Shown: positions 34,414 through 64,000 of the stretch, in pieces
Position numbering within the stretch: position 1 is the stretch's first letter
Layout of the letters: each line of letters opens with the position of its first letter
Program-made: the position numbers and the translations under genes
The notes under the pieces: generated by a model
Database searches by the model: none
What the model saw: the letters and a program-made list of their open reading frames with translations, nothing else
Told to the model about the DNA's origin: nothing
Assembly: GCA_000002445.1 (NCBI GenBank)
Contig: CP000070.1
Location: 448,001 to 512,000 of the forward strand
DNA length: 64,000 bases
DNA from: Trypanosoma brucei
Taxonomy: Eukaryota
Reading direction: 5' to 3'

Positions 34414-36495
34414 CTACTCATGACCTCGTTTCCGTGTGAATGCTGGTGCATCTCGATATTTTCTCTCTTCATGATACGCTATTATAAGCTCTTTCTGTAT
34501 CTTTTTATCAAATGTTATTTGATACTGGTCAATACCATCCCAAAATACTTGTGTTTCCTCAGTTTGTTGCTCAGCATCAGCGGTGTTGTTGTTCACACAT
34601 CGTTGCCGCGTCTTAATCACACCACCATAAATAGCATTAACATATATCATCTCCCATGCCATGTTACGAGAAAAGGTATCCCAATCGGAAAAATACCTTG
34701 CAATGTTTGTCATAAATTCCTGTAACTCTGAAACACTTGCTTCTTTCCTGTAATTATCTGTTATTTGAATAAGCACAATAGTCTTTGAGGCAACTCCCAG
34801 TTGTGGAAAACCATCCCTCATATCCGCAACCCTTCTAGAGCAATCTTCCACAAAGAAAAAGCCATCCACAAAAAGCTTACTCTCCTCCAATGACCTGTAG
34901 AGCACTTTGTATTTACAGTTTCCAATTGCATTCTGTCCAGTTTTTGGCAAGAACTTTTGTTCAAAAATTTGAAACTGTTGTGGGGTCATATCTTTCAGGA
35001 TGCTACGCTTGTCTTCCGTCTCTCCGAGTCTTCGGAGGTAGTTCAAATGTTTTGTGACCACACAAAAGACTCTAGGAAAGAGAAGTGAAACCAAAGCCCT
35101 TGTTTTAAGCGAGTAGGCTCCGACCTTACCGTATTCCATCATGAATTCATGGGATGACATACTTTCCGCAACATCTGCAAACAGCGTACAGAGTATCATA
35201 TTCCCAATGGCAACTGATAGAGGTCTACAGTGGTATGATTCGAGGTTGCCATATCTGCTCCTCTCCCGTACAATCTTTATTAACGATTCTGTGAAATGAT
35301 TACCTTTCCATTCAAAATATTTTCCCATCATCATATCATAGCCATCTCGTCTATTACAACTGAGACTGCTTAGATACCCTATTACTGCCGCCTCACGACA
35401 GCCAGCTCCATTACTGAAAACATAACGAGGCAGCGGCCCCACAAAGTCAACACGTCTCTCCACCAACCTCCACTCATCCTCTAGCTCTTCCTTAACCTTC
35501 AAACGAGCATTTTCATCGAGAGTCGTATAGTTGGGAAATAGGGACAGTTTCTTCCAAGCCACAAACGCCTTAATGTCACGTACGTCATCGCAGTTTAAAA
35601 TTATCCTTGTTTGTTCCAGGTTCTTCATCCAGTACTTGTAGCTAACTCCATCTGGGGGTGCGAGGACAGTCACACCCCAAACATTTCTTGGGATCTCATA
35701 AGGCAGAGTTTCCTTACGACTATTAATATCAAAAATAATATGCCCTCTTTTTTTTAGACGCATTTCCTTAATAACATTAGTGACGTCTTCTCTCTTGTAC
35801 AATACAACCCTCCCTTCCTCATTCCCCTTCTTGTTGTATATAAGGTAAGCTTTGGAACCCGTGAAAAACACAACGACATCAAGCATTCCTTCATGGAAGT
35901 GAAGTAGGGAATGAAGTAAAAATGATCCAACTCCACATGATTTTCCAATACCAGATATACCAATGACAATGTGTGTTGGTGGTGTGCTCTCTGTCTTTTC
36001 CACCCACCATGCATTTAATTTTCGTTGTATTATATACCACACACGCATCATTTCACGACGGATGTAGACATTATTGTCCAATATCCCAATTCTCTGATAT
36101 AAACTAATGAGAGAACATTGAAATCTATCTGAGGGCCAACCCATCTTTGATGTAAGGACAAAGATCTCCAGGCCAGTGGGTCTCTCCTCAAGTTCCGCAT
36201 CAACTTCACAATGTTCAGGAGTTATATCAACTTCTTCTTCCGTCCATATGTGTTGTGGTCTTCCAAAGAATACCTTCATACCGAGTGGCTCTTGATTATA
36301 ACCTGACATCACATAACTCCACTTCGCATAATACAGAGACTCATATAACTCCTCTTCACGAGATTTCCTTTTTCCAGTTACCGATGGATTCTGCATCTGT
36401 CGTCCACCTCGTTCCTGCACTTCACCTTGTGCACGATTAAACCGTTCGTTAAACACATTCTGAGTATTTCCCATATTGCCGTTGTTTTGAATCAT
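34414..36495 (-). CDS. array copy 4: RHS-like P-loop NTPase, 693 aa, type A core with short B-derived tracts (QRIGILDNNVYIRR; VVVFFTGSKAY)
   Basis: Colinear ORF. A +3 aa insertion-type patch matches the B-type sequence on its 5' side and the A-type on its 3' side. Confidence 0.6.
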   Translation of the reverse strand: MIQNNGNMGNTQNVFNERFNRAQGEVQERGGRQMQNPSVTGKRKSREEELYESLYYAKWSYVMSGYNQEPLGMKVFFGRPQHIWTEEEVDITPEHCEVDAELEERPTGLEIFVLTSKMGWPSDRFQCSLISLYQRIGILDNNVYIRREMMRVWYIIQRKLNAWWVEKTESTPPTHIVIGISGIGKSCGVGSFLLHSLLHFHEGMLDVVVFFTGSKAYLIYNKKGNEEGRVVLYKREDVTNVIKEMRLKKRGHIIFDINSRKETLPYEIPRNVWGVTVLAPPDGVSYKYWMKNLEQTRIILNCDDVRDIKAFVAWKKLSLFPNYTTLDENARLKVKEELEDEWRLVERRVDFVGPLPRYVFSNGAGCREAAVIGYLSSLSCNRRDGYDMMMGKYFEWKGNHFTESLIKIVRERSRYGNLESYHCRPLSVAIGNMILCTLFADVAESMSSHEFMMEYGKVGAYSLKTRALVSLLFPRVFCVVTKHLNYLRRLGETEDKRSILKDMTPQQFQIFEQKFLPKTGQNAIGNCKYKVLYRSLEESKLFVDGFFFVEDCSRRVADMRDGFPQLGVASKTIVLIQITDNYRKEASVSELQEFMTNIARYFSDWDTFSRNMAWEMIYVNAIYGGVIKTRQRCVNNNTADAEQQTEETQVFWDGIDQYQITFDKKIQKELIIAYHEERKYRDAPAFTRKRGHE

Positions 36496-40001: not shown

Positions 40002-42083
40002 CTACTCATGACCTCTTTTCCGTGTGAATGCTGGTGCATCTCGATATTTTCTCTCTTCATGATACGCTATTATAAGCTCTTTCTGTATCTTTTTATCAAA
40101 TGTTATTTGATACTGGTCAATACCATCCCAAAATACTTGTGTTTCCTCAGTTTGTTGCTCAGCATCAGCGGTGTTGTTGTTCACACATCGTTGCCGCGTC
40201 TTAATCACACCACCATAAATAGCATTAACATATATCATCTCCCATGCCATGTTACGAGAAAAGGTATCCCAATCGGAAAAATACCTTGCAATGTTTGTCA
40301 TAAATTCCTGTAACTCTGAAACACTTGCTTCTTTCCTGTAATTATCTGTTATTTGAATAAGCACAATAGTCTTTGAGGCAACTCCCAGTTGTGGAAAACC
40401 ATCCCGCATATCCGCAACCCTTCTAGAGCAATCTTCCACAAAGAAAAAGCCATCCACAAAAAGCTTACTCTCCTCCAATGACCTGTAGAGCACTTTGTAT
40501 TTACAGTTTCCAATTGCATTCTGTCCAGCTTCTGGCAAGAACTTTTGTTCAAAAATTTGAAACTGTTGTGGGGTCATATCTTTCAGGATGCTACGCTTGT
40601 CTTCCGTCTCTCCGAGTCTTCGGAGGTAGTTCAAATGTTTTGTGACCACACAAAAGACTCTAGGAAAGAGAAGTGAAACCAAAGCCCTTGTTTTAAGCGA
40701 GTAGGCTCCGACCTTACCGTATTCCATCATGAATTCATGGGATGACATACTTTCCGCAACATCTGCAAACAGCGTACAGAGTATCATATTCCCAATGGCA
40801 ACTGATAGAGGTCTACAGTGGTATGATTCGAGGTTGCCATATCTGCTCCCCTCCCGTACAATCTTTATTAACGATTCTGTGAAATCATTACCTTTCCATT
40901 CAAAATATTTTCCCATCATCATATCATAGCCATCTCGTCTATTACAACTGAGACTGCTTAGATACCCTATTACTGCCGCCTCACGACAGCCAGCTCCATT
41001 ACTGAAAACATAACGAGGCAGCGGCCCCACAAAGTCAACACGTCTCTCCACCAACCTCCACTCATCCTCTAGCTCTTCCTTAACCTTCAAACGAGCATTT
41101 TCATCGAGAGTCGTATAGTTGGGAAATACGGACAGTTTCTTCCAAGCCACAAACGCCTTAATGTCACGTACGTCATCGCAGTTTAAAATTATCCTTGTTT
41201 GTTCCAGGTTCTTCATCCAGTACTTGTAGCGAACTCCATCTGGGGGTGCGAGGACAGTCACACCCCAAACATTTCTTGGGATCTCATAAGGCAGAGTTTC
41301 CTTACGACTATTAATATCAAAAATAATATGCCCTCTTTTTTTTAGACGCATTTCCTTAATAACATTAGTGACGTCTTTTCTCTTGTACAATACAACCCTC
41401 CCTTCCTCATTCCCCTTCTTGTTGTATATAAGGTAAGCTTTGGAACCCGTGAAATACACAACGACATCAAGCATTCCTTCATGGAAGTGAAGTAGGGAAT
41501 GAAGTAAAAATGATCCAACTCCACATGATTTTCCAATACCAGATATACCAATGACAATGTGTGTTGGTGGTGTGCTCTCTGTCTTTTCCACCCACCATGC
41601 ATTTAATTTTCGTTGTATTATATACCACACACGCATCATTTCACGACGGATGTAGACATTATTATCCAATATCCCAATTCTCTGATATAAACTAATGAGA
41701 GAACATTGAAATCCGCATGATGGGTTACATATCTTTGATGTAAGGACAAAGATCTCCAGGCCAGTGGGTCTCTCCTCAAGTTCCGCATCAACTTCACAAT
41801 GTTCAGGAGTTATATCCACTTCTTCTTCCGTTCATATGTGTTGTGGTCTTCCAAAGAATACCTTCATACCGAGTGGCTCTTGATTATAACCTGACATCAC
41901 ATAACTCCACTTCGCATAATACAGAGACTCATATAACTCCTCTTCACGAGATTTGCTTTTTCCAGTTACCGATGGATTCTGCATCTGCCGTCCACCTTGT
42001 TCATGCACTTCACCTTGTGCACGATTAAACCGTTCGTTAAACACATTCTGAGTATTTCTCATATTGCCGTTGTTTTGAATCAT
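40002..42083 (-). pseudogene. array copy 5: RHS-like gene interrupted by a nonsense mutation (Trp84 TGG to TGA at 41832-41834); the rest of the reading frame is intact
   Basis: The track splits it into an 83-aa ORF (41832-42083) and a 605-aa ORF (40002-41819) that begins at a GTG. Other copies have cca/TGG at the same site. The first downstream in-frame ATG lies ~65 codons further on, in ...REMMRVWY..., ahead of the P-loop. Confidence 0.55.
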
Positions 42084-45612: not shown

Positions 45613-47688
45613 CTACTCATGACCTCGTTTCCGTGTGAATGCTGGTGCATCTCGATATTTTCTCTCTTCATGATACGCTATTATAAGCTCTTTCTGTATC
45701 TTGTTATCAAATGTTATTTGATACTGGTCAATACCATCCCAAAATACTTGTGTTTCCTCAGTTTGTTGCTCAGCATCAGCGGTGTTGTTGTTCACACATC
45801 GTTGCCGCGTCTTAATCACACCACCATAAATAGCATTAACATATATCATCTCCCATGCCATGTTACGAGAAAAGGTATCCCAATCGGAAAAATACCTTGC
45901 AATGTTTGTCATAAATTCCTGTAACTCTGAAACACTTGCTTCTTTCCTGTAATTATCTGTTATTTGAATAAGCACAATAGTCTTTGAGGCAACTCCCAGT
46001 TGTGGAAAACCATCCCTCATATCCGCAACCCTTCTAGAGCAATCTTCCACAAAGAAAAAGCCATCCACAAAAAGCTTACTCTCCTCCAATGACCTGTAGA
46101 GCACCTTGTATTTACAGTTTCCAATTGCATTCTGTCCAGTTTTTGGTAAGAACTTTTGTTCAAAAATTTGAAACTGTTGTGGGGTCATATCTTTCAGGAT
46201 GCTACGCTTGTCTTCCGTCTCTCCGAGTCTTCGGAGGTAGTTCAAATGTTTTGTGACCACACAAAAGACTCTAGGAAAGAGAAGTGAAACCAAAGCCCTT
46301 GTTTCAAGCGAGTAGGCTCCGACCTTACCGTATACGCTTTCACTATGTTTCTCAACCATCAGTGTTGCAACAGTTGAAAACAGCGTACAGAGTATCATAT
46401 TCCCAATGGCAACTGATAGAGGTCTACAGTGGTATGATTCGAGGTCGTCATATCTGCCCCCCTCCCGTACAATCTTCACTAAACTGTGAACCACTTTTTC
46501 ACTTTTCCACGTAAAATATTTTTCCAGAATCGTTTCATACTCTTCTTTCTTCTCATTTTCTAGGCTTCTTAGGTAATCACTGATATCCTGCAGCCGGTTG
46601 GTGTAACTTTGCTTGCTGAAAACATAACGAGGCAGCGGCCCCACAACGTCAACACGTCTCTCCACTAACCTCCACTCATCCTCTAGCTCTTCCTTAACCT
46701 TCGCACGAGCATTTTCATCGAGAGTCGTATAGTTGGGAAATAGGGACAGTTTCTTCCAGGCCACAAACGCCTTAATGTCACGTACGTCATCGCAGTTTAA
46801 AATCACATTCCAACTGAAATAGTCCTTCTCCCAATGTTTATAATAGTATGTATCCGGAGTGTTGAGTGTAGTTATTCCCCACCCAAGATATTGGGTCTCA
46901 TAAGGCGGAGTCTCATCAGGTCCATCAGTATCAAAAATAATATGCCCTCTTTTTTTCAAACGCATTTCTTTAATAACATTAGTGACGTCTTTTCTCTTGT
47001 ACAATACAACCCTCCCTTCCTCATTCCCCTTCTTGTTGTATATAAGGTAGGCGTCCACATCCGTGAAATACACAACGACATCAAGCATTCCTTCATGGAA
47101 GTGAAGTAGGGAATGAAGTAAAAATGATCCAACTCCACATGATTTTCCAGTCCCTGGAATACCAATGACAATGTGTGTTGGTGGTGTGCTCTCTGTCTTT
47201 TGCACCCACCATGCATTTAATTTTCGTTGTATTATATACCACACACGCATCATTTCACGACGGATGTAGACATTATTGTCCATTATACCACTTTCATCAT
47301 TGATACCTAATTGAAACGTAGCTGATGGCCAACCCATCTTTGATGTAAGGACAAAGATCTCCAGGCCAGTGGGTCTCTCCTCAAGTTCCGCATCAACTTC
47401 ACAATGTTCAGGAGTTATATCCACTTCTTCTTCCGTCCATATGTGTTGTGGTCTTCCAAAGAATACCTTCATACCGAGTGGCTCTTGATTATAACCTGAC
47501 ATCACATAACTCCACTTCGCATAATACAGAGACTCATATAACTCCTCTTCACGAGATTTCCTTTTTCCAGTTACCGATGGATTCTGCATCTGTCGTCCAC
47601 CTCGTTCCTGCACTTCACCTTGTGCACGATTAAACCGTTCGTTAAACACATTCTGAGTATTTCCCATATTGCCGTTGTTTTGAATCAT
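45613..47688 (-). CDS. array copy 6: RHS-like P-loop NTPase, 691 aa, core type B (Walker A IVIGIPGTGKS)
   Basis: The central ~345 codons are replaced by a diverged sequence (e.g. FDTDGPDETPPYETQYLGWGITTLNTPDTYYYKHW...; SKQSYTNRLQDISDYLRSLENEKKEEYETILEKYFTWKSEKVVHSLVK). Flanks are identical to type A copies. Confidence 0.6.
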   Translation of the reverse strand: MIQNNGNMGNTQNVFNERFNRAQGEVQERGGRQMQNPSVTGKRKSREEELYESLYYAKWSYVMSGYNQEPLGMKVFFGRPQHIWTEEEVDITPEHCEVDAELEERPTGLEIFVLTSKMGWPSATFQLGINDESGIMDNNVYIRREMMRVWYIIQRKLNAWWVQKTESTPPTHIVIGIPGTGKSCGVGSFLLHSLLHFHEGMLDVVVYFTDVDAYLIYNKKGNEEGRVVLYKRKDVTNVIKEMRLKKRGHIIFDTDGPDETPPYETQYLGWGITTLNTPDTYYYKHWEKDYFSWNVILNCDDVRDIKAFVAWKKLSLFPNYTTLDENARAKVKEELEDEWRLVERRVDVVGPLPRYVFSKQSYTNRLQDISDYLRSLENEKKEEYETILEKYFTWKSEKVVHSLVKIVREGGRYDDLESYHCRPLSVAIGNMILCTLFSTVATLMVEKHSESVYGKVGAYSLETRALVSLLFPRVFCVVTKHLNYLRRLGETEDKRSILKDMTPQQFQIFEQKFLPKTGQNAIGNCKYKVLYRSLEESKLFVDGFFFVEDCSRRVADMRDGFPQLGVASKTIVLIQITDNYRKEASVSELQEFMTNIARYFSDWDTFSRNMAWEMIYVNAIYGGVIKTRQRCVNNNTADAEQQTEETQVFWDGIDQYQITFDNKIQKELIIAYHEERKYRDAPAFTRKRGHE

Positions 47689-47746
47689 TCCTATCTCAAA
47701 ATAATAACTTTAAATAGGTAATATTGTGTTACTTTCTGCACATATG

Positions 47747-47781
<35 letters not shown>

Positions 47782-50242
47782 GTTAAATCAAATAGTAAAA
47801 TGAAGGGAATGATGTGTACACACTATCAAGCAACACATATATACAGTTCATGAATATCATAAACTAACAGAACAAATTATAACCTCTCCTTACAGTTAAA
47901 CCCCTTAACAACCCCTTGCATATATTGAATAGTGATGTTCAATCAATTAAATATTCTGTATGAAAGCATGAGTAATAAGATTTTTAGATATGAGAGATAA
48001 CAAACACGAAATCCTAAGTGAAGAATACTACTATTTCATATAATATAATATGTATGCATATAGTATAATATGTCATACTTTTTGAAATAATAAACAATAG
48101 TATTAATAATGAGATAAACAGAATTTACAATAATAGATTATGCATTGCACACGTAATAATGAGGACAACGTATGTCACAAAGGTTCTTAATTATAACATC
48201 GAAAGAACATTAACTCAAAGCATCAGCAAACATGCACATAAAAACTGTTATTCATTATAACATCTGGCTCCATCCCACAACATAGACGACAATGTTTGAG
48301 TGTAAACCGTAACATACAAAACCTAACACAAATATCTTCTGTACTGTCAAATATTGGGATGGTATCTCATCCCATTATTAAACACTTTCAACATTATCTT
48401 GTTGTCTCCTTGTTTGGGAACTCTCATCTTTGACACTAAGGAATATGTGAAGATATTAAGATCATTTATTTTTTTATTTCCTAGTTGCATTTGCAATTGT
48501 TCACATATTCTTTCAGTACACGCAAAAAAATTGAAAGTTTAAGGAAAATTGAATTATGAGAATAAGGAAACAAAGGATAAATTTTCTGTGAACAATAAAA
48601 TATTATATAATATCTCAAATCTTCTGCAGTGATTCACCACATGTGGAAAATATATGCAATAGTTACATAACACTGACAACACTGAATAAAGGAATATATT
48701 CAATATACTCAATATAGTCAATATATTTAATGCAAATATTACATGGAATATAAGAAGTGTAAGGAATCAAAGAAATATAAAAAATAAAATGTAATGGAGA
48801 ATGATGGAAACTTAAGATACATCTATGTGAGCATAGCGTTGTGTGAGTAGAAATCATGTGCATATTTTATCTTAATCTTTCCCTATATTGTACTCACTCA
48901 CTCGTAAAATTTAATCATGGAAATAAAGTTTAGGGAATAGTAAAGTTGTTCTCCCACTCGCATCAAGACACAAATACATGCTTTCTGTCATTGGAAATCA
49001 TGTGTCTTTACTAAATTGTAGTATCCAATAATGAAAAAGAAGTACTCTATTACTATATCACTCATCATTTCCTACATCCCTAAATATATCGCATATTGTC
49101 ACTATACATATTCTTTTTCTTTTTCATATACCATACAACAATCATATATTATTTACTTCCTTTCTTTAAACTGATGTCGTAATGTTCCTTTTGGAAGATA
49201 CAAATAAATAATTGTACAAATATTAACACAAGAGTAATAATAGAAGAAAAGAATTACCTTAAGGAAACTACATGGAACTTCCATTATATAAGATACTACA
49301 CTTCATATAAGGGGGAAATACGTAACAGTGGTTGTATCTTTTATTTGTCCTCAGTGTATCGGCAATCCTTCAGTAGACACTGCTTTGCAACTGATTTCTT
49401 TTATGGATTAAGTTAGTCAGCAGTGTTGAGACAGGTTCCCCCGCATGAGGAGTGAAGGGACAAAACAATATTCCTACCTTCTAACCTATTGAACAAGAAT
49501 GTCTCAAACAATATCATTTGTCCCTATTTATTTCTGCAGATGCAAATGCTATTGATGGGTGAGATACATCTAAACAGCAACGGATATAACTATATTCATA
49601 CAGTGTTTCTTTGATTTCTTCTCGTCACCACAGTTGTGTTGGGTTACAAATATATACACAGCACTCCACTTTGTGGCTATAAGTCTCTTTAATATTTGAA
49701 TGAAATCCTGCTTATCGCTACTACAATATTTCACACTCTGTGAGGGACACTGATATTTGCTTCTTTCGTCCATTTCATATTTTGATAGTTATGTAAATAT
49801 CTTATGTGCAATCCATCTTCTTTCCAAAATAAATAAAAAGAAAGATAAAAGCATAAGCAATTATCGACATAAAAACTGGAATGAGTCTCTCGGTTACACG
49901 TCGCACGCTTCTAACATATAGACACGCTGCATGTAACCTATTTTTGTTGTTTCATGCATGTGTCAGTATGATAAAATGAAAATAGTCTCATGTTTCTCCT
50001 TTTGCTTTTGTATTGCATAAACTACTGGACTCGTCATCTCTTCCACCTATTCATCACACAGGAGTTATTCACTTGCTTTACATGTATCATATAGTAAAAA
50101 TACAAAATATCAAATTATTAAATTAATACTTCACTATAAGCAATAAAGCTTACTTGATTTTGTTTATTTCATTTATATCTGAGTTGAATTACATATTTTA
50201 ATTGAAATTATTCCACTACTCAAAGATACAAACACTTTATTG

Positions 50243-50277
<35 letters not shown>

Positions 50278-51214
50278 ATGGTTTTGAGACACACCACATA
50301 TCAGTTCTTCAACATTACATATGTGTAAATCCATATTTACAAAAGGTACAGCTTTTGAATATCTGCATAATTATTTGAAGTATTATTATCTAATGAAATG
50401 AACAGTAGATGTCACTGAAATGCAAATAGTAATAATCCTCTGAAAGGCATAAATACTGTTTCATACAATACTCTAAAGTACTGCAGCGCTGTGCCATGAA
50501 TACTTCCACAGAATATACAACAACTAATGTGCGATAGTTAGTCATAATGATGCCTTCCATGTGATGAACTCTGCAATACAAATCATACGTTGAACAGAAA
50601 CTAAAACATTAAATACTAAATATAAATGCATGGGGGAGTGATGTAAACTATAAGAGGGGTTATGTACGTCAAGGAAGTTTCATTAGAATACAATAATAGT
50701 TTTGAATTTTATTAAACAACTTAAAGCTTAACCACATGTGTGGAAACAACAATCACTTCACTATAGCATTTGTAGATTAGTGATTGTTACTGAAATAAAT
50801 GAAAAAAACAAATGAAGTAAATACAGCAAGCACTGCATCCCATATTCTGTATTCATCACTGTGTGCTGACGCGTTTGAGTAGCTTTGCCCATTGACAGAA
50901 AAAAAAATAATAAATAAATGAAATCTCTTCTTGCATCTTGTACAAGTGTATTTCAACAAAACAAAGACGTAAAAGAAATTTTATGCTTAATATATTTACT
51001 CATTTATTTGAAGGAAAGGTACAATAGCCAAAAACTATAAAGGTGCATGTGAGTTATACTTCATTGTCAGATAAAGTTAACTTCACAACCCTCCTGAAAC
51101 ACAAAAGGAAAATTAAAAGAATTACAATGAAGAAACAGAAGGAATACAATATGTTTTTTCCAACCTCTAACATGTTATATGTAAAAGTGACGAAATGGTC
51201 TTCACAATAGGATG

Positions 51215-53287
51215 CTACTCATGACCTCGTTTCCGTGTGAATGCTGGTGCATCTCGATATTTTCTCTCTTCATGATACGCTATTATAAGCTCTTTCTGTA
51301 TCTTGTTATCAAATGTTATTTGATACTGGTCAATACCATCCCAAAATACTTGTGTTTCCTCAGTTTGTTGCTCAGCATCAGCGGTGTTGTTGTTCACACA
51401 TCGTTGCCGCGTCTTAATCACACCACCATAAATAGCATTAACATATATCATCTCCCATGCCATGTTACGAGAAAAGGTATCCCAATCGGAAAAATACCTT
51501 GCAATGTTTGTCATAAATTCCTGTAACTCTGAAACACTTGCTTCTTTCCTGTAATTATCTGTTATTTGAATAAGCACAATAGTCTTTGAGGCAACTCCCA
51601 GTTGTCGAAAACCATCCCGCATATCCGCAACCCTTCTAGAGCAATCTTCCACAAAGAAAAAGCCATCCACAAAAAGCTTACTCTCTTCAAATGACCTGTA
51701 GAGCACCTTGTATTTACAGTTTCCAATTGCATTCTGTCCAGTTTTTGGTAAGAACTTTTGTTCAAAAATTTGAAACTGTTGTGGGGTCATATCTTTCAGG
51801 ATGCTACGCTTGTCTTCCGTCTCTCCGAGTCTTCGGAGGTAGTTCAAATGTTTTGTGACCACACAAAAGACTCTAGGAAAGAGAAGTGAAACCAAAGCCC
51901 TTGTTTCAAGCGAGTAGGCTCCGACCTTACCGTATACGCTTTCACTATGTTTCTCAACCATCAGTGTTGCAACAGTTGAAAACAGCGTACAGAGTATCAT
52001 ATTCCCAATGGCAACTGATAGAGGTCTACAGTGGTATGATTCGAGGTTGCCATATCCGCTCCCCTCCCGTACAATCTTCACTAAACTGTGAACCACTTTT
52101 TCACTTTTCCACGTAAAATATTTTTCCAGAATCGTTTCATACTCTTCTTTCTTCTCATTTTCTAGGCTTCTTAGGTAATCACTGATATCCTGCAGCCGGT
52201 TGGTGTAACTTTGCTTGCTGAAAACATAACGAGGCAGCGGCCCCACAACGTCAACACGTCTCTCCACTAACCTCCACTCATCCTCTAGCTCTTCCTTAAC
52301 CTTCGCACGAGCATTTTCATCGAGAGTCGTATAGTTGGGAAATAGGGACAGTTTCTTCCAGGCCACAAACGCCTTAATGTCACGTACGTCATCGCAGTTT
52401 AAAATCACATTCCAACTTAAATAGTCCTTCTCCCAATGTTCATAATAGTGTGTATCCGGAGTGTTGAGTGTAGTTATTCCCCACCCAAGATATTGGGTCT
52501 CATAAGGCGGAGTCTCATCAGGTCCATCAGTATCAAAAATAATATGCCCTCTTTTTTTAAAACGCATTTCTTCAATAACATTAGTGACGTCTTTTCTCTT
52601 GTACAATACAACCCTCCCTTCCTCATTCCCCTTCTTGTTGTATATAAGGTAAGCTTTGGCATCCGTGAAATACACAACGACATCAAGCATTCCTTCATGG
52701 AAGTGAAGTAGGGAATGAAGTAAAAATGATCCAACTCCACATGATTTTCCAGTCCCTGGAATACCAATGACAATGTGTGTTGGTGGTCTCTCTGTCTTTT
52801 GCACCCACCATGCATTTAATTTTTGTTGTATTATATACCACACACGCATCATTTCACGACGGATGTAGACATTATTGTCCATTATACCACTTTCATCATT
52901 GATACCTAATTGAAACGTAGCTGATGGCCAACCCATCTTTGATGTAAGGACAAAGATCTCCAGGCCAGTGGGTCTCTCCTCAAGTTCCGCATCAACTTCA
53001 CAATGTTCAGGAGTTATATCAACTTCTTCTTCCGTCCATATGTGTTGTGGTCTTCCAAAGAATACCTTCATACCGAGTGGCTCTTGATTATAACCTGACA
53101 TCACATAACTCCACTTCGCATAATACAGAGACTCATATAACTCCTCTTCACGAGATTTCCTTTTTCCAGTTACCGATGGATTCTGCATCTGTCGTCCACC
53201 TCGTTCCTGCACTTCACCTTGTGCACGATTAAACCGTTCGTTAAACACATTCTGAGTATTTCTCATATTGCCGTTGTTTTGAATCAT
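51215..53287 (-). CDS. array copy 7: RHS-like P-loop NTPase, 690 aa, core type B, with a 1-codon deletion (QKTERPPTH)
   Basis: Same type-B core as copy 6, with a 3-bp in-frame deletion near 52790. Confidence 0.6.
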   Translation of the reverse strand: MIQNNGNMRNTQNVFNERFNRAQGEVQERGGRQMQNPSVTGKRKSREEELYESLYYAKWSYVMSGYNQEPLGMKVFFGRPQHIWTEEEVDITPEHCEVDAELEERPTGLEIFVLTSKMGWPSATFQLGINDESGIMDNNVYIRREMMRVWYIIQQKLNAWWVQKTERPPTHIVIGIPGTGKSCGVGSFLLHSLLHFHEGMLDVVVYFTDAKAYLIYNKKGNEEGRVVLYKRKDVTNVIEEMRFKKRGHIIFDTDGPDETPPYETQYLGWGITTLNTPDTHYYEHWEKDYLSWNVILNCDDVRDIKAFVAWKKLSLFPNYTTLDENARAKVKEELEDEWRLVERRVDVVGPLPRYVFSKQSYTNRLQDISDYLRSLENEKKEEYETILEKYFTWKSEKVVHSLVKIVREGSGYGNLESYHCRPLSVAIGNMILCTLFSTVATLMVEKHSESVYGKVGAYSLETRALVSLLFPRVFCVVTKHLNYLRRLGETEDKRSILKDMTPQQFQIFEQKFLPKTGQNAIGNCKYKVLYRSFEESKLFVDGFFFVEDCSRRVADMRDGFRQLGVASKTIVLIQITDNYRKEASVSELQEFMTNIARYFSDWDTFSRNMAWEMIYVNAIYGGVIKTRQRCVNNNTADAEQQTEETQVFWDGIDQYQITFDNKIQKELIIAYHEERKYRDAPAFTRKRGHE

Positions 53288-55821
53288 TCCTATCTCAAAA
53301 TAATAACTTTAAATAGGTAATATTGTGTTACTTTCTGAACATATGTGTGTGTGTGTTTGTGTGTGTGTTAAATCAAATAGTAAAATGAAGGGAATGATGT
53401 GTACACACTATCAAGCAACACATATATACAGTTCATGAATATAATAAACTAACAGAACAAATTATAACCTCTCCTTACAGTTAAACCCCTTAACAACCCC
53501 TTGCATATATTGAATAGTGATGTTCAATCAATTAAATATTCTGTATGAAAGCATGAGTAATAAGATTTTTAGATATGAGAGATAACAAACACGAAATCCT
53601 AAGTGAAGAATACTACTATTTCATATAATATAATATGTATGCATATAGTATAATATGTCATACTTTTTAAAATAATAAACAATAGTATTAATAATGAGAT
53701 AAACAGAATTTACAATAATAGATTATACATTGCACACGTAATAATGAGGACAACGTATGTCACAAAGGTTCTTAATTATAACATCGAAAGAACATTAACT
53801 CAAAGCATCAGCATATATGCACATACAAACTGTTATTCATTATAACATCTTGGCTCCATCTCACAGCATAGACGACAATGTTTGAGTGTAAACCGTAACA
53901 TACAAAACCCAACACAAATATCTTCTGTACTGTTAAATATTGGGATGGTATCTCATCTCATTATTAAACACTTTCAACATTATCTTGTTGTCTCCTTGTT
54001 TGGGAACTCTCATCTGTGACACTAAGGAATATGTGAAGATATTAAGATCATTTATTTATTTATTTCCTAGTTGCATTTGCAATTGTTCACGTATTCTTTC
54101 AGTACACGCAAAAAAATTGAAAGTTTAAGGAAAATTGAATTATGAGAATAAGGAAACAAAGGATAAATTTTCTGTGAACAATAAAATATTATATAATATC
54201 TCAAATCTTCTGCAGTGATTCACCACATGTGGAAAATATATGCAATAGTTACATAACACTGACAACACTGAATAAAGGAATATATTCAATATACTCAATA
54301 TACTCAATATATTTAATGCAAATATTACATGGAATATAAGAAGTGTAAGGAATCAAAGGAATATAAAAAATAAAATGTAATGGAGAATGATGGAAACTTA
54401 AGATACATCTATGTGAGCATAGCGTTGTGTGAGTAGAAATCATGTGCATATTTTATCTTAATTTTTCCCTATATTGTACTCACTCACTCGTAAAATTTAA
54501 TCATGGAAATAAAGTTTAGGGAATAGTAAAGTTGTTCTTCCACTCGCATCAAGACACAAATACCTGCTTTCTGTCATTGGAAATCACGTGTCTTTACTAA
54601 ATTGTAGTATCCAATAATGAAGTACTCTATTACTATATCACTCATCATTTCCTACATCCCTAAATATATCGCATATTGCCACTATACATATTCTTTTTCT
54701 TTTTCATATACCATACAACAATCATATATTATTTACTTCCTTTCTTTAAACTGATGTCGTAATGTTCCTTTTGGAAGATACAAATAAATAATTGTACAAA
54801 TATTAACACAAGAGTAATAATAGAAGAAAAGAATTACCTTAAGGAAACTACATGGAACTTCCATTATATAAGATACTGCACTTCATATAAGGGGGAAATA
54901 CGTAACAGTGGTTGTATCTTTTATTTGTCCTCAGTGTATCGGCAATCCTTCAGTAGACACTGCTTTGCAACTGATTTCTTTTATGGATTAAGTTAGTCAG
55001 CAGTGTTGAGACAGGTTCCCCCGCATGAGGAGTGAAGGGACAAAACAATATTCCTACCTTCTAACCTATTGAACAAGAATGTCTCAAACAATATCATTTG
55101 TCCCTATTTATTTCTGCAGATGCAAATGCTATTGATGGGTGAGATACATCTAAACAGCAACGGATATAACTATATTCATACAGTGTTTCTTTGATTTCTT
55201 CTCGTCACCACAGTTGTGTTGGGTTACAAATATATACACAGCACTCCACTTTGTGGCTATAAGTCTCTTTAATATTTGAATGAAATCCTGCTTATCGCTA
55301 CTACAATATTTCACACTCTGTGAGGGACACTGATATTTGCTTCTTTCGTCCATTTCATATTTTGATAGTTATGTAAATATCTTATGTGCAATCCATCTCC
55401 TTTCCAAAATAAATAAAAAGAAAGATAAAAGCATAAGCAATTATCGACATAAAAACTGGAATGAGTCTCTCGGTTACACGTCGCACGCTTCTAACATATA
55501 GACACGCTGCATGTAACCTATTTTTGTTGTTTCATGCATGTGTCAGTATGATAAAATGAAAATAGTCTCATGTTTCTCCTTGTGCTTTTGTATTGCATAA
55601 ACTACTGGACTCGTCATCTCTTCCACCTATTCATCACACAGGAGTTATTCACTTGCTTTACATATAGCATATAGTAAAAATACAAAATATCAAATTATTA
55701 AATTAATACTTCACTATAAGCAATAAAGCTTACTTGATTTTGTTTATTTCATTTATATCTGAGTTGAATTACATATGTTAATGAAATTATTCCACTACTC
55801 AAAGATACAAACACTTTATTG

Positions 55822-55858
<37 letters not shown>

Positions 55859-56808
55859 ATGGTTTTGAGACACACCACATATCAGTTCTTCAACATTACA
55901 TATGTGTAAATCCATATTTACAAAAGGTACAGCTTTTGAATATCTGCATAATTATTTGAAGTATTATTATCTAATGAAGTGAACAGTAGATGTCACTAAA
56001 ATGCAAATAGTAATAATCCTCTGAAAGGCATAAATACTGTTTCATACAATACTCTAAAGTAATGCAGCGCTATGCCATGAATACTTCCACAGAAGATACA
56101 ACAACTAATGTGCGATAGTTAGTCATAATGATGCCTTCCATGTGATGAACTCTGCAATACAAATCATACGTTGAACAGAAACTAAAACATTAAATACTAA
56201 ATATAAATGCATGGGGGAGTGATGTAAACTATAAGAGGGGTTATGTACGTCAAGGAAGTTTCATTAGAATACAATAATAGTTTTGAATTTTATTAAACAA
56301 CTTAAAGCTTAACCACATGTGTGGAAACAACAATCACTTCACTATAGCATTTGTAGATTAGTGATTGTTACTGAAATAAATGAAAAAAAACAAATGAAGT
56401 AAATACAGCAAGCACTGCATCCCATATTCTGTATTCATCACTGTGTGCTGACGCGTTTGAGTAGCTTTGCCCATTGACAGAAAAAAAATAATAAATAAAT
56501 GAAATCTCTTCTTGCATCTTGCACAAGTGTATTTCAACAAAACAAAGACGTAAAAGAAATTTTATGCTTAATATATTTACTCATTTATTTGAAGGAAAGG
56601 TACAATAGCCAAAAAACTATAAAGGTGCATGTGAGTTATACTTCATTGTCAGATAAAGTTAACTTCACAACCCTCCTGAAACACAAAAGGAAAATTAAAA
56701 GAATTACAATGAAGAAACAGAAGAAATACAATATGTTTTTTCCAACCTCTAACATGTTATATGTAAAAGTGACGAAATGGTCTTCACAATAGGATGCTAC
56801 TCATGACC

Positions 56809-58872
56809 TCATTTCCGTGTGAATGCTGGTGCATCTCGATATTTTCTCTCTTCATGATACGCTATTATAAGCTCTTTCTGTATCTTGTTATCAAATGTTA
56901 TTTGATACTGGTCAATACCATCCCAAAATACTTGTGTTTCCTCAGTTTGTTGCTCAGCATCAGCGGTGTTGTTGTTCACACATCGTTGCCGCGTCTTAAT
57001 CACACCACCATAAATAGCATTAACATATATCATCTCCCATGCCATGTTACGAGAAAAGGTATCCCAATCGGAAAAATACCTTGCAATGTTTGTCATAAAT
57101 TCCTGTAACTCTGAAACACTTGCTTCTTTCCTGTAATTATCTGTTATTTGAATAAGCACAATAGTCTTTGAGGCAACTCCCAGTTGTGGAAAACCATCCC
57201 TCATATCCGCAACCCTTCTAGAGCAATCTTCCACAAAGAAAAAGCCATCCACAAAAAGCTTACTCTCCTCCAATGACCTGTAGAGCACCTTGTATTTACA
57301 GTTTCCAATTGCATTCTGTCCAGTTTTTGGTAAGAACTTTTGTTCAAAAATTTGAAACTGTTGTGGGGTCATATCTTTCAGGATGCTACGCTTGTCTTCC
57401 GTCTCTCCGAGTCTTCGGAGGTAGTTCAAATGTTTTGTGACCACACAAAAGACTCTAGGAAAGAGAAGTGAAACCAAAGCCCTTGTTTCAAGCGAGTAGG
57501 CTCCGACCTTACCGTATACGCTTTCACTATGTTTCTCAACCATCAGTGTTGCAACAGTTGAAAACAGCGTACAGAGTATCATATTCCCAATGGGAACTGA
57601 TAGAGGTCTACAGTGGTATGATTCGAGGTCGTCATATCTGCCCCCCTCCCGTACAATCTTCACTAAACTGTGAACCACTTTTTCACTTTTCCACGTAAAA
57701 TATTTTTCCAGAATCGTTTCATACTCTTCTTTCTTCTCATTTTCTAGGCTTCTTAGGTAATCACTGATATCCTGCAGCCGGTTGGTGTAACTTTGCTTGC
57801 TGAAAACATAACGAGGCAGCGGCCCCACAACGTCAACACGTCTCTCCACCAACCTCCACTCATCCTCTAGCTCTTCCTTAACCTTCGCACGAGCATTTTC
57901 ATCGAGAGTCGTATAGTTGGGAAATAGGGACAGTTTCTTCCAGGCCACAAACGCCTTAATGTCACGTACGTCATCGCAGTTTAAAATCACATTCCAACTT
58001 AAATAGTCCTTCTCCCAATGTTCATAATAGTGTGTATCCGGAGTGTTGAGTGTAGTTATTCCCCACCCAAGATATTGGGTCTCATAAGGCGGAGTCTCAT
58101 CAGGTCCATCAGTATCAAAAATAATATGCCCTCTTTTTTTCAAACGCATTTCTTTAATAACATTAGTGACGTCTTTTCTCTTGTACAATACAACCCTCCC
58201 TTCCTCATTCCCCTTCTTGTTGTATATAAGGTAAGCTTTGGCATCCGTGAAATACACAACGACATCAAGCATTCCTTCATGGAAGTGAAGTAGGGAATGA
58301 AGTAAAAATGATCCAACTCCACATGATTTTCCAGTCCCTGGAATACCAATGATAATGTGTGTTGGTGGTGTGCTCTCTGTCTTTTGCACCCACCATTCTT
58401 TTAATTTTTGTTGTATTATATACCACACACGCATCATTTCACGACGGATGTAGACATTATTGTCCATTATACCACTTTCATCATTGATACCTAATTGAAA
58501 CGTAGCTGATGGCCAACCCATCTTTGATGTAAGGACAAAGATCTCCAGGCCAGTGGGTCTCTCCTCAAGTTCCGCATCAACTTCACAATGTTCAGGAGTT
58601 ATATCCACTTCTTCTTCCGTCCATATGTGTTGTGGTCTTCCAAAGAATACCTTCATACCGAGTGGCTCTTGATTATAACCTGACATCACATAACTCCACT
58701 TCGCATAATACAGAGACTCATATAACTCCTCTTCACGAGATTTCCTTTTTCCAGTTACCGATGGATTCTGCATCTGTCGTCCACCTCGTTCCTGCACTTC
58801 ACCTTGTGCACGATTAAACCGTTCGTTAAACACATTCTGAGTATTTCTCATATTGCCGTTGTTTTGAATCAT
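56809..58872 (-). CDS. array copy 8: RHS-like P-loop NTPase, 687 aa, core type B, early-stop C-terminus (ends AFTRK)
   Basis: Type-B core, plus the same CGA to TGA change as copy 3 (tca at 56809-56811). Confidence 0.6.
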   Translation of the reverse strand: MIQNNGNMRNTQNVFNERFNRAQGEVQERGGRQMQNPSVTGKRKSREEELYESLYYAKWSYVMSGYNQEPLGMKVFFGRPQHIWTEEEVDITPEHCEVDAELEERPTGLEIFVLTSKMGWPSATFQLGINDESGIMDNNVYIRREMMRVWYIIQQKLKEWWVQKTESTPPTHIIIGIPGTGKSCGVGSFLLHSLLHFHEGMLDVVVYFTDAKAYLIYNKKGNEEGRVVLYKRKDVTNVIKEMRLKKRGHIIFDTDGPDETPPYETQYLGWGITTLNTPDTHYYEHWEKDYLSWNVILNCDDVRDIKAFVAWKKLSLFPNYTTLDENARAKVKEELEDEWRLVERRVDVVGPLPRYVFSKQSYTNRLQDISDYLRSLENEKKEEYETILEKYFTWKSEKVVHSLVKIVREGGRYDDLESYHCRPLSVPIGNMILCTLFSTVATLMVEKHSESVYGKVGAYSLETRALVSLLFPRVFCVVTKHLNYLRRLGETEDKRSILKDMTPQQFQIFEQKFLPKTGQNAIGNCKYKVLYRSLEESKLFVDGFFFVEDCSRRVADMRDGFPQLGVASKTIVLIQITDNYRKEASVSELQEFMTNIARYFSDWDTFSRNMAWEMIYVNAIYGGVIKTRQRCVNNNTADAEQQTEETQVFWDGIDQYQITFDNKIQKELIIAYHEERKYRDAPAFTRK

Positions 58873-62387: not shown

Positions 62388-64000
62388 TCATTTCCGTGTG
62401 AATGCTGGTGCATCTCGATATTTTCTCTCTTCATGATACGCTATTATAAGCTCTTTCTGTATCTTTTTATCAAATGTTATTTGATACTGGTCAATACCAT
62501 CCCAAAATACTTGTGTTTCCTCAGTTTGTTGCTCAGCATCAGCGGTGTTGTTGTTCACACATCGTTGCCGCGTCTTAATCACACCACCATAAATAGCATT
62601 AACATATATCATCTCCCATGCCATGTTACGAGAAAAGGTATCCCAATCGGAAAAATACCTTGCAATGTTTGTCATAAATTCCTGTAACTCTGAAACACTT
62701 GCTTCTTTCCTGTAATTATCTGTTATTTGAATAAGCACAATAGTCTTTGAGGCAACTCCCAGTTGTGGAAAACCATCCCTCATATCCGCAACCCTTCTAG
62801 AGCAATCTTCCACAAAGAAAAAGCCACCAACAAGGGGCTTACTCTCTTCAAATGACCTGTAGAGCACCTTGTATTCACAGTTTCCAATTGCATTCTGTCC
62901 AGCTTCTGGTAAGAACTTTTGTTCAACAAGTTGAAACTGTTGTGGGGTCATATCTTTCAGGATGCTACGCTTGTCTTCCGTCTCTCCGAGTCTTCGGAGG
63001 TAGTTCAAATGTTTTGTGACCACACAAAAGACTCTAGGAAAGAGAAGTGAAACCAAAGCCCTTGTTTTAAGCGAGTAGGCTCCGACCTTACCGTATCCCA
63101 TCATGAATTCAAGGGATGACATACTTTTCGCAACAGTTGCAAACAGCGTACAGAGTATCATATTCCCAATGGCAACTGATAGAGGTCTACAGTGGTATGA
63201 TTCGAGGTTGCCATATCTGCTCCTCTCCCGTACAATCTTTATTAACGGTTGTGTGAAATCATTACCTTTCCATTCAAAATATTTTCCCATCATCATATCA
63301 TAGCCATCTCGTCTATTACAACTGAGACGGCTTAGATACCTTATTACCTCCAACTCACGACAGTTACCTCGATTACCGAAAACATAACGAGGCAGCGGCC
63401 CCACTACGTCAACACGTCTCTCCACCAACCTCCACTCATCCTCTAGCTCTTCCTTAACCTTCGCACGAGCATTTTCATCGAGAGTCGTATAGTTGGGAAA
63501 TAGGGACAGTTTCTTCCAAGCCACAAACGCCTTAATGTCACGTACGTCATCGCAGTTTAAAATTATCCTTGTTTGTTCCAGGTTCTTCATCCAGTACTTG
63601 TAGCGAACTCCATCTGGGGGTGCGAGGACAGTCACACCCCAAACATTTCTTGGGATCTCATAAGGCAGAGTTTCCTTAGGACTATTAATATCAAAAATAA
63701 TATGCCCTCTTTTTTTCAAACGCATTTCTTCAATAACATTAGTGACGTCTTTTCTCTTGTACAATACAACCCTCCCTTCCTCATTCCCCTTCTTGTTGTA
63801 TATAAGGTAAGCTTTGGCATCCGTGAAATACACAACGACATCAAGCATTCCTTCATGGAAGTGAAGTAGGGAATGAAGTAAAAATGATCCAACTCCACAT
63901 GATTTTCCAATACCAGATATACCAATGACAATGTGTGTTGGTGGTCTCTCTGTCTTTTGCACCCACCATGCATTTAATTTTTGTTGTATTATATACCACA
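62388..64000 (-). CDS. array copy 9: RHS-like P-loop NTPase, 3' part only (5' end beyond the window), a third more divergent mosaic core with early-stop C-terminus
   Basis: The reading frame stays open to position 64000; the track's M at 63962 is a GTG. It combines A-type GISGIGKS and DINSPKETLPYEIPRNVWGVTVLAPP with B-type ENARAKVKEELE and with unique tracts (FGNRGNCRELEVIRYLSRL; FATVAKSMSSLEFMMGYG; QQFQLVEQKF; EESKPLVGGFFF). Confidence 0.55.
   Translation of the reverse strand, partial: WYIIQQKLNAWWVQKTERPPTHIVIGISGIGKSCGVGSFLLHSLLHFHEGMLDVVVYFTDAKAYLIYNKKGNEEGRVVLYKRKDVTNVIEEMRLKKRGHIIFDINSPKETLPYEIPRNVWGVTVLAPPDGVRYKYWMKNLEQTRIILNCDDVRDIKAFVAWKKLSLFPNYTTLDENARAKVKEELEDEWRLVERRVDVVGPLPRYVFGNRGNCRELEVIRYLSRLSCNRRDGYDMMMGKYFEWKGNDFTQPLIKIVRERSRYGNLESYHCRPLSVAIGNMILCTLFATVAKSMSSLEFMMGYGKVGAYSLKTRALVSLLFPRVFCVVTKHLNYLRRLGETEDKRSILKDMTPQQFQLVEQKFLPEAGQNAIGNCEYKVLYRSFEESKPLVGGFFFVEDCSRRVADMRDGFPQLGVASKTIVLIQITDNYRKEASVSELQEFMTNIARYFSDWDTFSRNMAWEMIYVNAIYGGVIKTRQRCVNNNTADAEQQTEETQVFWDGIDQYQITFDKKIQKELIIAYHEERKYRDAPAFTRK

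What the first reader, a model, noticed from the sequence alone, without database searches (positions are those of the whole stretch)
45613..58872. Array genes are mosaics: identical ends but two strongly diverged core haplotypes (A in copies 1-5, B in copies 6-8) with recombinant copies
Codons 1-115 and the last ~230 codons are essentially identical in all copies. The central ~345 codons, including the P-loop, exist in two versions that differ at the amino-acid level by far more than SNP noise. Examples are DINSRKETLPYEIPRNVWGVTVLAPPDGVRYKYW against FDTDGPDETPPYETQYLGWGITTLNTPDTYYYKHW, and SNGAGCREAAVIEYLSSLSCNRRDGYDMMMGKYFEWKGNHFTESLIK against SKQSYTNRLQDISDYLRSLENEKKEEYETILEKYFTWKSEKVVHSLVK. 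Junctions between diverged and identical sequence are sharp at the nucleotide level, for example around 46310-46380 against 18350-18420. Copies 4 and 5 carry short B-derived tracts in an A background. Flanking SNPs are shuffled independently of core type: QEQGG/QERGG, MRNTQ/MGNTQ, FDNK/FDKK. This looks like repeated segmental gene conversion from diverged family members into a homogenised array, the kind of process that diversifies VSG and RHS repertoires.
Basis: seen in the sequence. Interest (0 to 1): 0.75.

Follow-up and report, generated by a model that had tools for sequence, protein, structure and literature searches.

The report
Patchwork RHS7 gene array, Trypanosoma brucei
Nine tandem copies of a trypanosome RHS7 gene are almost identical except for six short segments that come in two very different versions and get swapped between copies; this is real, but it was already described for this same array in 2007.

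Summary
The window is Trypanosoma brucei brucei TREU927 chromosome 7, about 448-512 kb. The array is the known RHS7 tandem array (Tb927.7.2030 ff., "Tb55", the silent cluster at cSSR 7.3). It has nine 5.6-kb units on the minus strand.

The core is not one diverged block of about 345 codons. It is six short patches, 152 codons in all, with 58% nucleotide identity and dS 0.76. The spacers between them are as identical as the gene ends and the 3.5-kb intergenic DNA (about 99%, dS 0.015). Clustering is beyond chance (0 of 5000 permutations).

The patches coincide with the segments that vary across the whole RHS family. Each has two forms, occasionally three. Both forms are near-identical in T. b. 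gambiense and are also present in T. b. equiperdum proteins. There they occur in 10 different combinations among 28 copies, with breakpoints inside the identical spacers.

Best explanation: the array evolves in concert by unequal crossing-over and short-tract gene conversion between its own copies, and two old cassette sets are retained and shuffled. No external donor was found; the other RHS subfamilies are at most 43% identical in the patches. Diversity is limited to a few forms per patch, not open-ended like VSG.

Jackson (2007) already reported the divergent copies, the incongruent UTR trees and five conversion events in this array. Low novelty.

The parts
17663..19735 (-). RHS7 copy 1, 690 aa, all patches type A
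   Evidence: ORF. Pfam RHS_N plus RHSP P-loop domain, E 1e-31 and 3e-53. Exact match to XP_845819 of T. b. brucei TREU927.
23247..25319 (-). RHS7 copy 2, 690 aa, type A with the third ('C') form of micro-patch 1a (KICNPSCGF)
   Evidence: Exact match to XP_845820.
28850..30910 (-). RHS7 copy 3, 686 aa, type A. It is identical to copy 1 in all patches and ends 4 codons early (CGA>TGA).
34414..36495 (-). RHS7 copy 4, 693 aa, type A with B-type tracts. One tract is at 36061-36096 (QRIGILDNNVYI; only its 3' part, 36056-36080, is identical to B). The other covers CDS nt 640-726 and includes the variant TGSKA at 35848-35862.
40002..42083 (-). RHS7 copy 5, a pseudogene with an in-frame stop at 41832-41834 (W84*). 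It is type A with the same B-type tracts as copy 4 and the C form of micro-patch 1a.
45613..47688 (-). RHS7 copy 6, 691 aa, type B in the five strongly diverged patches (B-like also at the weak patch 3). The short variable site FTDVDAY (CDS nt 640-644) is A-type. Patch coordinates: 47263-47328, 47149-47160, 46957-47001, 46804-46929, 46444-46617, 46333-46377.
   Evidence: Exact match to XP_845823.
51215..53287 (-). RHS7 copy 7, 690 aa, type B with a short A-type tract at CDS nt 1243-1291
56809..58872 (-). RHS7 copy 8, 687 aa, type B, ends 4 codons early
62388..64000 (-). RHS7 copy 9, cut by the window end. It is mostly type A, has B-type states at CDS nt 640-740 and 993-1050, and carries its own variant of patches 5 and 6.
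   Evidence: It matches P0006 / XP_845826.
19736..23246 (-). One example of the eight 3.5-kb AT-rich intergenic spacers (about 30% GC). All are about 99% identical. None of their 41 informative sites follows the A/B split.
   Evidence: No ORF of 70 aa or more lies wholly inside it, and there is no Rfam or tRNA hit.
16510..17662 (.). Convergent strand-switch region (cSSR 7.3) between the plus-strand housekeeping genes and the minus-strand RHS7 array
   Evidence: Gene orientations. PMC4721609 places cSSR 7.3 at chr7 453-525 kb with nine RHS genes.

Best explanation
This is the RHS7 tandem array of T. brucei. It evolves in concert while holding two old, alternative cassette sets.

**Homogenisation.** Unequal crossing-over and short-tract gene conversion between array members keep about 99% of each 5.6-kb unit identical. 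That covers the intergenic DNA, the 5' and 3' parts of the gene and the spacers inside the core.

**The patches.** Six short segments, the same ones that vary across the whole RHS family, each exist in an A and a B form. The two forms are about as different from each other as from other RHS subfamilies.

**Why junctions are sharp.** The A and B forms are too diverged to pair. Exchanges therefore start and end in the identical spacers, and each patch moves as a unit. This produces sharp junctions and recombinant copies.

**Donors.** The donors are other copies of the same array (sister chromatid or homologue), not dispersed family members.

**Shown:** the block structure, its statistical significance, the recombinant combinations, breakpoints in the spacers, and near-identity of both cassette sets in the T. 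b. gambiense coding sequences compared.

**Inferred:** the role of heterology and mismatch repair in stopping tracts, and that both sets are kept by selection because A and B proteins differ in function. Whole-unit turnover, which has erased all A/B signal from the intergenic DNA, would otherwise be expected to fix one type.
For: **Identity of the locus**
- Copies match XP_845819-845826 exactly.
- The coordinate offset of 448,000 fits Jackson's array Tb55 at 465663-512454.
- Pfam RHS_N plus RHSP.

**Concerted framework**
- Intergenic differences are 0-6 per 200 nt in all units.
- Framework dS between A and B is 0.015, against 1.4 to an outgroup RHS.
- Framework differences between types (mean 22.5 of 1605 nt) barely exceed those within types (mean 15.3). 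Patches differ at 185-193 of 456 nt between types and 0-25 within types.

**Old cassettes**
- Patch dS is 0.76-0.85 and dN 0.57-0.77.
- Patches coincide with family-wide variable segments. A-B amino-acid identity is 20-36% in the four large patches (50% in the 4-residue P-loop patch), similar to either form against RHS from other subfamilies.

**Exchange among copies**
- PHI-type test: 0 of 1000 permutations for the CDS and 4 of 1000 for the intergenic DNA.
- 21 of 36 patch pairs show all four A/B combinations, and 28 copies fall into 10 five-patch haplotypes.
- DAL972 copies P0042, P0038 and P0043 switch type inside identical spacers. One switch lies at a short identity island of about 11 nt inside patch 4.

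**Stability**
- P0042 has only 2 private nucleotides against all eight TREU927 copies over 2076 nt.

**Literature**
- Jackson 2007 (PMC1855330) reports divergent copies 2-4, incongruent UTR networks and five CDS conversion events for this array.
Against: - In TREU927 the five strongly diverged patches are in complete linkage: copies 1-5 are all A and copies 6-8 all B. The free reassortment rests largely on the DAL972 assembly, which has gaps (519 N in L005) and many fragmentary gene models.
- Homogenising spacers as short as 9 and 22 codons between patches needs very short conversion tracts or many events.
- The selection argument is indirect. dN/dS in the patches is about 0.75-0.9 with saturated dS, which does not demonstrate positive or balancing selection.
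- I could not search unannotated parts of the genome for an external origin of one cassette set.
Confidence: 0.75

Rival explanations
1. A homogenised array repeatedly receives short conversion tracts from diverged RHS genes or pseudogenes dispersed elsewhere in the genome, as in VSG mosaic formation.
For: - Patch divergence (dN 0.77) is nearly as large as between RHS subfamilies.
- T. brucei has about 118 RHS genes and pseudogenes, mostly subtelomeric (PMC6393297).
- Ectopic donors are reported for T. cruzi RHS mosaics (PMC7563717).
- The 17-nt micro-patch 1a 'C' form has no explained origin.
Against: - No annotated RHS outside the array exceeds 51% identity overall or 43% in any patch.
- The window holds no template.
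- Six separate imports from one donor into the same copies would be needed to produce the linked BBBBB set.
- No donor-derived SNP footprints flank the patches; spacers are 97-100% identical.
- Only two or three forms exist per patch, and they are conserved in the subspecies proteins typed.
Confidence: 0.1
2. The patches are recent products of localised hypermutation or strong diversifying selection acting on surface loops after duplication. No old lineages are involved.
For: - dN/dS is high in the patches: 0.75 overall, about 1 in patch 5 and 1.6 in patch 6.
- The patches are the family's variable segments.
Against: - Synonymous sites are equally diverged (dS 0.76-0.85 against 0.015 in the framework), and codon-sized indels are present.
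- Both forms are almost unchanged in the T. b. gambiense coding sequences compared, so the patches are not evolving fast now.
- Only two discrete forms exist, with no graded intermediates. The exception is the copy-9 variant.
Confidence: 0.05
3. Assembly artefact. A and B copies belong to different homologues or loci and were merged, and the recombinant copies are chimeric joins of near-identical repeats.
For: - TREU927 is a Sanger-era assembly of a 50-kb array of 99%-identical units.
- DAL972 has gaps and fragmentary models in the array (519 N in L005).
- I found no independent contig carrying the exact TREU927 proteins.
Against: - Both cassette sets and recombinants occur in three separately generated assemblies: TREU927, DAL972 and T. 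b. equiperdum.
- In the TREU927 copies, switches between types lie more than 25 nt from the nearest identical-repeat edge, and copies 4 and 5 share them.
- The locus was independently described as nine highly similar RHS genes (PMC4721609).
Confidence: 0.05

Closest known systems
Array Tb55 (RHS7, Tb927.7.2030) in Jackson 2007, BMC Evol Biol 7:54 (PMC1855330)
   Same: It is the same locus. [quoted passage not shown] Mean Ds is 0.066 and Dn 0.065.
   Different: That paper does not describe any of the following, as far as the text and tables I could read show:
- the divergence resolved into six cassette-like patches;
- the coincidence of the patches with family-wide variable segments;
- the roughly 40-fold dS contrast;
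- the conservation of both forms across subspecies.
Mosaic RHS genes of Trypanosoma cruzi (Bernardo et al. 2020, PMC7563717)
   Same: It is the same protein family. The genes are mosaics built by unequal crossing-over and segmental or ectopic gene conversion, and up to three foreign fragments occur per gene.
   Different: In T. cruzi the donors belong to different RHS groups at many loci, and diversity is large. Here exchange is confined to one tandem array with two or three forms per segment.
VSG segmental gene conversion (mosaic VSG formation) in T. brucei
   Same: It is the same organism and recombination machinery. Short tracts are copied between related genes and produce mosaics.
   Different: VSG mosaics draw on a large archive of diverged, dispersed (pseudo)genes, are assembled at a single expression site, and are selected by host immunity. 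RHS7 shows no external archive and has no expression site. Other RHS subfamilies are nuclear or perinuclear (PMC6393297), so RHS7 is probably intracellular too. The array is silent outside the tsetse salivary gland.
Dimorphic block structure of Plasmodium falciparum MSP1 (from my own knowledge, not checked here)
   Same: Conserved blocks alternate with variable blocks that exist in just two deeply diverged forms. Recombination between the forms happens in the conserved blocks.
   Different: MSP1 forms are alleles of a single-copy surface-antigen gene in a population. Here the forms are paralogous copies in one tandem array.

Membership tests
RHS (retrotransposon hot spot) protein family | RHS N-terminal domain (PF20445) followed by the RHS P-loop domain (PF07999) | tested here: met
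   Both domains hit in an A copy and a B copy: RHS_N E 1e-31 to 2e-33, RHSP E 3e-53 to 6e-59.
RHS (retrotransposon hot spot) protein family | Walker A ATP/GTP-binding motif GxxxxGK[ST] | tested here: met
   GISGIGKS in type A and GIPGTGKS in type B. Both fit the motif, although the motif lies in dimorphic patch 2.
RHS (retrotransposon hot spot) protein family | RIME/ingi retroelement inserted at the family's hot spot in the 5' part of the gene (seen in many RHS pseudogenes) | tested here: not met
   No copy carries an insertion. All units are 5564-5611 bp and align end to end. This feature names the family but is not required of each member.
RHS7 subfamily | Identity with the annotated RHS7 genes of chromosome 7 (Tb927.7.2030 array) | tested here: met
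   Exact protein matches to TREU927 XP_845819-845826. Coordinates fit array Tb55, named RHS7, at 465663-512454.
Tandem arrays under concerted evolution with intra-array gene conversion (Jackson 2007 classes) | Repeat units near-identical, including non-coding DNA | tested here: met
   Intergenic DNA is about 99% identical. Framework dS is 0.015.
Tandem arrays under concerted evolution with intra-array gene conversion (Jackson 2007 classes) | Significant mosaic signal: incompatible sites clustered by position, and different histories for CDS and flanks | tested here: met
   PHI-type permutation 0 of 1000 for the CDS. No intergenic site shows the A/B split. Four-gamete failures are present.
VSG-type mosaic formation from an archive | Dispersed diverged donor genes or pseudogenes matching the imported tracts | tested here: not met
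   No protein outside the array exceeds 43% identity in any patch. No template exists in the window. Unannotated DNA was not searchable.
VSG-type mosaic formation from an archive | Open-ended diversity of the variable segments | tested here: not met
   Each patch has two or three forms across 34 copies from three subspecies.
Dimorphic block genes (MSP1-like) | Two deeply diverged forms per variable block, conserved blocks between them, and recombination in the conserved blocks | tested here: met
Dimorphic block genes (MSP1-like) | The forms are alleles of one single-copy locus | tested here: not met
   Both forms are paralogous copies in the same array.

The most novel reading that the evidence does not exclude
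The A and B cassette sets are two functionally distinct specificity variants of RHS7, for example binding different partners. Selection keeps both in an array that is otherwise homogenised. The array is silenced by a base J / H3.V termination site and is switched on only in tsetse salivary-gland forms that are not metacyclics. The dimorphism would then matter for that developmental window.
Probability: 0.12. Interest if true: 0.55.

Novelty: already known. Interest (0 to 1): 0.22.

Why it matters
It is a clean textbook-style case of two forces acting on one tandem array. Homogenisation is strong enough to erase all type-specific signal from 3.5 kb of spacer DNA and most of the gene. Six short segments nevertheless stay about 40-50% diverged and behave as swappable cassettes.

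This is useful for thinking about how sequence divergence limits conversion tracts in trypanosomes, and about whether RHS7 proteins come in two functional flavours. It does not reveal a new kind of system. The array, its divergent copies and its gene-conversion events have been in the literature since 2007, and the locus is a standard example of a silent gene cluster downstream of a J/H3.V termination site.

Tried and rejected
1. **Structure mapping of the patches.** The AlphaFold2 model of copy 6, built with a 26-sequence RHS alignment, was poor: mean pLDDT 58.8, pTM 0.44, and below 50 over most of patches 1, 2, 5 and 6. Foldseek against the PDB gave no hit below E 0.01. A profile search of PDB sequences gave nothing. 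No structural conclusion is drawn.
2. **Protein search with concatenated B-type patches.** Only 4 candidates were retrieved and none scored, although known B copies contain these peptides exactly. The result is uninformative, not evidence of absence.
3. **Independent contigs carrying the exact TREU927 copies 1, 4 and 6.** None is on record. DNA of TREU927 outgroup RHS genes was also not on record, so a DAL972 outgroup was used instead.
4. **Local templates for the patches.** A short-word BLAST of every patch form against the whole window gave only chance matches of 9-16 nt.
5. **Features in the intergenic DNA.** No Rfam family, no tRNA, and no ORF of 70 aa or more lying wholly inside a spacer. 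Tandem Repeats Finder cannot see the 5.6-kb period.
6. **Compensated frameshifts.** The nucleotide alignment puts +7/-4 and -1/-4/+5 gaps inside patches 5 and 6, which could suggest this origin. I rejected it because identity stays low under either alignment.


Full report
**What the window is**

The window holds plus-strand housekeeping genes from 1.8 to 16.5 kb:
- a FYVE protein;
- a protein kinase;
- glycine dehydrogenase;
- a leucine-rich-repeat protein;
- a GDA1/CD39 nucleoside phosphatase.

From 17.6 kb to the window end there are nine minus-strand ORFs of about 690 codons, spaced 5564-5611 bp apart. The ORFs carry the Pfam RHS_N and RHSP (P-loop) domains.

Seven copies are exact matches to T. 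brucei brucei TREU927 proteins XP_845819-845825, all on a 2,205,233-bp contig, which is chromosome 7. Copy 9 corresponds to XP_845826. [quoted passage not shown] That fits copy 1 at window 17663 with an offset of exactly 448,000.

[quoted passage not shown] It lies downstream of a base J / H3.V transcription termination site (PMC4721609). RHS7 transcripts are reported only from tsetse salivary-gland forms and not from metacyclics (PMC6393297; PMC8483307).

**Checking the observation**

I aligned the eight complete units and the partial ninth. The 3.5 kb of AT-rich intergenic DNA differs by 0-6 substitutions per 200 nt between any unit and unit 1. Within the coding sequence, units 6-8 differ from unit 1 by up to 65 of 200 nt between CDS nt about 350 and 1400.

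Listing all 303 variable columns and viewing the alignment shows that the divergence is not continuous. An automatic clustering of copy 1 against copy 6 gives six patches:

| Patch | Alignment codons | nt identity |
|---|---|---|
| 1 | 121-145 | 63% |
| 2 (inside the Walker A motif) | 180-183 | 58% |
| 3 (weak) | 233-247 | 89% |
| 4 | 257-298 | 52% |
| 5 | 361-418 | 59% |
| 6 | 441-455 | 38% |

Comparing the patches with the rest of the gene:

| Region | Codons | nt differences | nt identity | dS | dN |
|---|---|---|---|---|---|
| All patches | 152 | 190 | 58.3% | 0.76 | 0.57 |
| All the rest | 535 | 15 | 99.1% | 0.015 | 0.008 |
| Spacers inside the core | 176 | 7 | 98.7% | 0.026 | 0.010 |

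Permuting the positions of the differences never reproduced the observed clustering: 0 of 5000 for the longest identical run, the index of dispersion and the number of empty bins.

The "345-codon core" is itself a mosaic of diverged patches and identical spacers.

The other details hold:
- Copies 4 and 5 have B-type tracts at CDS nt about 400-432 and 640-726.
- Copy 6 has an A-type tract at nt 640-644.
- Copy 7 has an A-type tract at nt 1243-1291.
- Copy 9 is A-like with scattered B states and its own patch variants.
- The flanking SNPs are distributed independently of core type.
- Copy 5 is a pseudogene with W84 changed to a stop.

**Different segments have different histories**

Among the eight complete units, a PHI-type test is significant: 0 of 1000 permutations for the CDS and 4 of 1000 for the intergenic DNA. 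Of 820 pairs of informative intergenic sites, 461 fail the four-gamete test. None of the 41 informative intergenic sites has the split {1-5} against {6-8}.

Framework differences between types (mean 22.5 of 1605 nt) are barely above those within types (mean 15.3). The patches differ at 185-193 of 456 nt between types and 0-25 within types.

**Related copies in other subspecies**

The protein search returned RHS7 copies only from the chromosome-7 arrays of TREU927, T. b. gambiense DAL972 and T. b. equiperdum.

Each patch has the same A and B forms in all three subspecies. There is a third form only for a 17-nt micro-patch (KICNPSCGF) and for patch 5 (the copy-9 type).

In TREU927 the five strongly diverged patches are fully linked. 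In DAL972 and T. b. equiperdum they are not. The 28 complete copies fall into 10 five-patch haplotypes:
- AAAAA, 10 copies;
- BBBBB, 8 copies;
- BABBB and BAAAA, 2 copies each;
- BABBA, AAACA, BABAA, AAABB, BAABA and ABBBB, 1 copy each.

Of the 36 patch pairs, 21 show all four A/B combinations.

At the nucleotide level:
- DAL972 copy P0042 is a clean A-to-B recombinant. Its switch lies between CDS nt 893 and 993, inside an identical spacer. It has only 2 private nucleotides in 2076 compared with all TREU927 copies.
- P0038 switches from B to A between nt 930 and 985.
- P0043 alternates B|A|B|A|B|A. All its switches lie in spacers except one, inside patch 4, at a short island of about 11 nt that A and B share.

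Both cassette sets are therefore older than the split of the T. brucei subspecies. They are stable, and they move as units.

**Where the two forms come from**

I aligned A and B with 21 other RHS proteins. The patches are exactly the segments that vary across the whole family. The spacers are 50-80% identical to other subfamilies and the patches 7-43% (13 of the 21 tabulated). In the four large patches A and B are 20-36% identical to each other, no closer than either is to other subfamilies.

With DNA of an outgroup RHS from DAL972, the comparison is:

| Comparison | Region | dS | dN |
|---|---|---|---|
| A against B | Patches | 0.85 | 0.77 |
| RHS7 against outgroup | Patches | 1.6-1.7 | 0.82-0.87 |
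| A against B | Framework | 0.02 | 0.01 |
| RHS7 against outgroup | Framework | 1.4 | 0.28 |

The A/B split is therefore deep, and the framework must have been homogenised afterwards. The high synonymous divergence, and the stability of both forms in the DAL972 sequences compared, argue against recent hypermutation or purely selective divergence.

No candidate donor exists among annotated RHS proteins or in the window. Jackson's table records the array at this syntenic position only in T. brucei and T. b. gambiense.

**Mechanism**

The best-supported reading has three parts.

1. *Concerted evolution.* Unequal crossing-over and short-tract gene conversion among array copies homogenise the units.
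2. *Heterology at the patches.* The diverged forms stop heteroduplex extension. From established knowledge of T. brucei recombination, its efficiency falls steeply with divergence and is policed by mismatch repair. I have not tested this here.
3. *Consequences.* Breakpoints therefore fall in identical spacers, and the patches behave as cassettes.

Whole-unit turnover should eventually fix one type, and the intergenic DNA shows that turnover has been thorough. The long coexistence of A and B therefore suggests that selection keeps both. This step is inference.

It has no positive evidence, and it is less economical for six linked patches.

**Comparison with what is known**

Jackson 2007 (PMC1855330) already singled out this array. 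[quoted passage not shown] He listed five gene-conversion events in its CDS, with mean Ds 0.066 and Dn 0.065. His copies 2-4 correspond to my copies 8-6 if he numbered from the upstream end.

Mosaic RHS genes formed by segmental and ectopic conversion are also described in T. cruzi (PMC7563717).

What my analysis adds is detail:
- the patch-and-spacer anatomy;
- its coincidence with family-wide variable segments;
- the roughly 40-fold contrast in dS;
- the small fixed number of forms;
- their conservation in the other subspecies sampled.

**Verdict**

Interest is low to moderate. It is a neat example, and there is a small chance that the two cassette sets mark functionally distinct RHS7 proteins in a stage-specific, chromatin-silenced array.

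Noticed in passing
window 24942-24974 (copy 2) and 41706-41738 (copy 5): A 17-nt micro-patch has 10 substitutions and turns KMGWPSDRF into KICNPSCGF. This removes the G-W pair that is nearly invariant across the RHS family. The same form occurs in 8 T. b. gambiense copies. No template was found in the window, and its origin is unexplained.
   Followed up: partly
window 28850-28852, 56809-56811, 62388-62390 (stop codons of copies 3, 8, 9): A CGA>TGA change ends copies 3, 8 and 9 four codons early (TRK* instead of TRKRGHE*). Its distribution is independent of core type, and it also occurs in many T. b. gambiense copies.
   Followed up: partly
window 41832-41834: Copy 5 carries an in-frame stop (W84, TGG>TGA) plus three private N-terminal-region substitutions, two of them amino-acid changes. 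It is a pseudogene inside an otherwise intact array.
   Followed up: yes
patch 2, e.g. window 47149-47160 (copy 6): The B form of the Walker A motif (GIPGTGKS) was seen only together with B forms of patches 4-6 (9 of 9 copies), although it does occur with A-type patch 1. This may reflect co-adaptation, or only the small sample.
   Followed up: no
window 16510-17662: Convergent strand-switch region between the housekeeping genes and the RHS7 array. It is published as cSSR 7.3, where base J and histone H3.V terminate Pol II upstream of the array and keep it silent (PMC4721609). No tRNA or Rfam hit was found there.
   Followed up: partly
L005, L007, L008 (T. b. gambiense DAL972 chr7 467-546 kb): The gambiense array spans at least 79 kb, against about 47 kb in TREU927. 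It has many fragmentary gene models and assembly gaps, and A-type, B-type and recombinant copies are interspersed rather than in two blocks. This indicates copy-number variation between subspecies.
   Followed up: partly
window 1782-4059: The two ORFs of 366 and 358 aa (the second has a FYVE finger) lie in what Jackson 2007 lists as tandem pair Tb54, at chr7 443289-452059.
   Followed up: no
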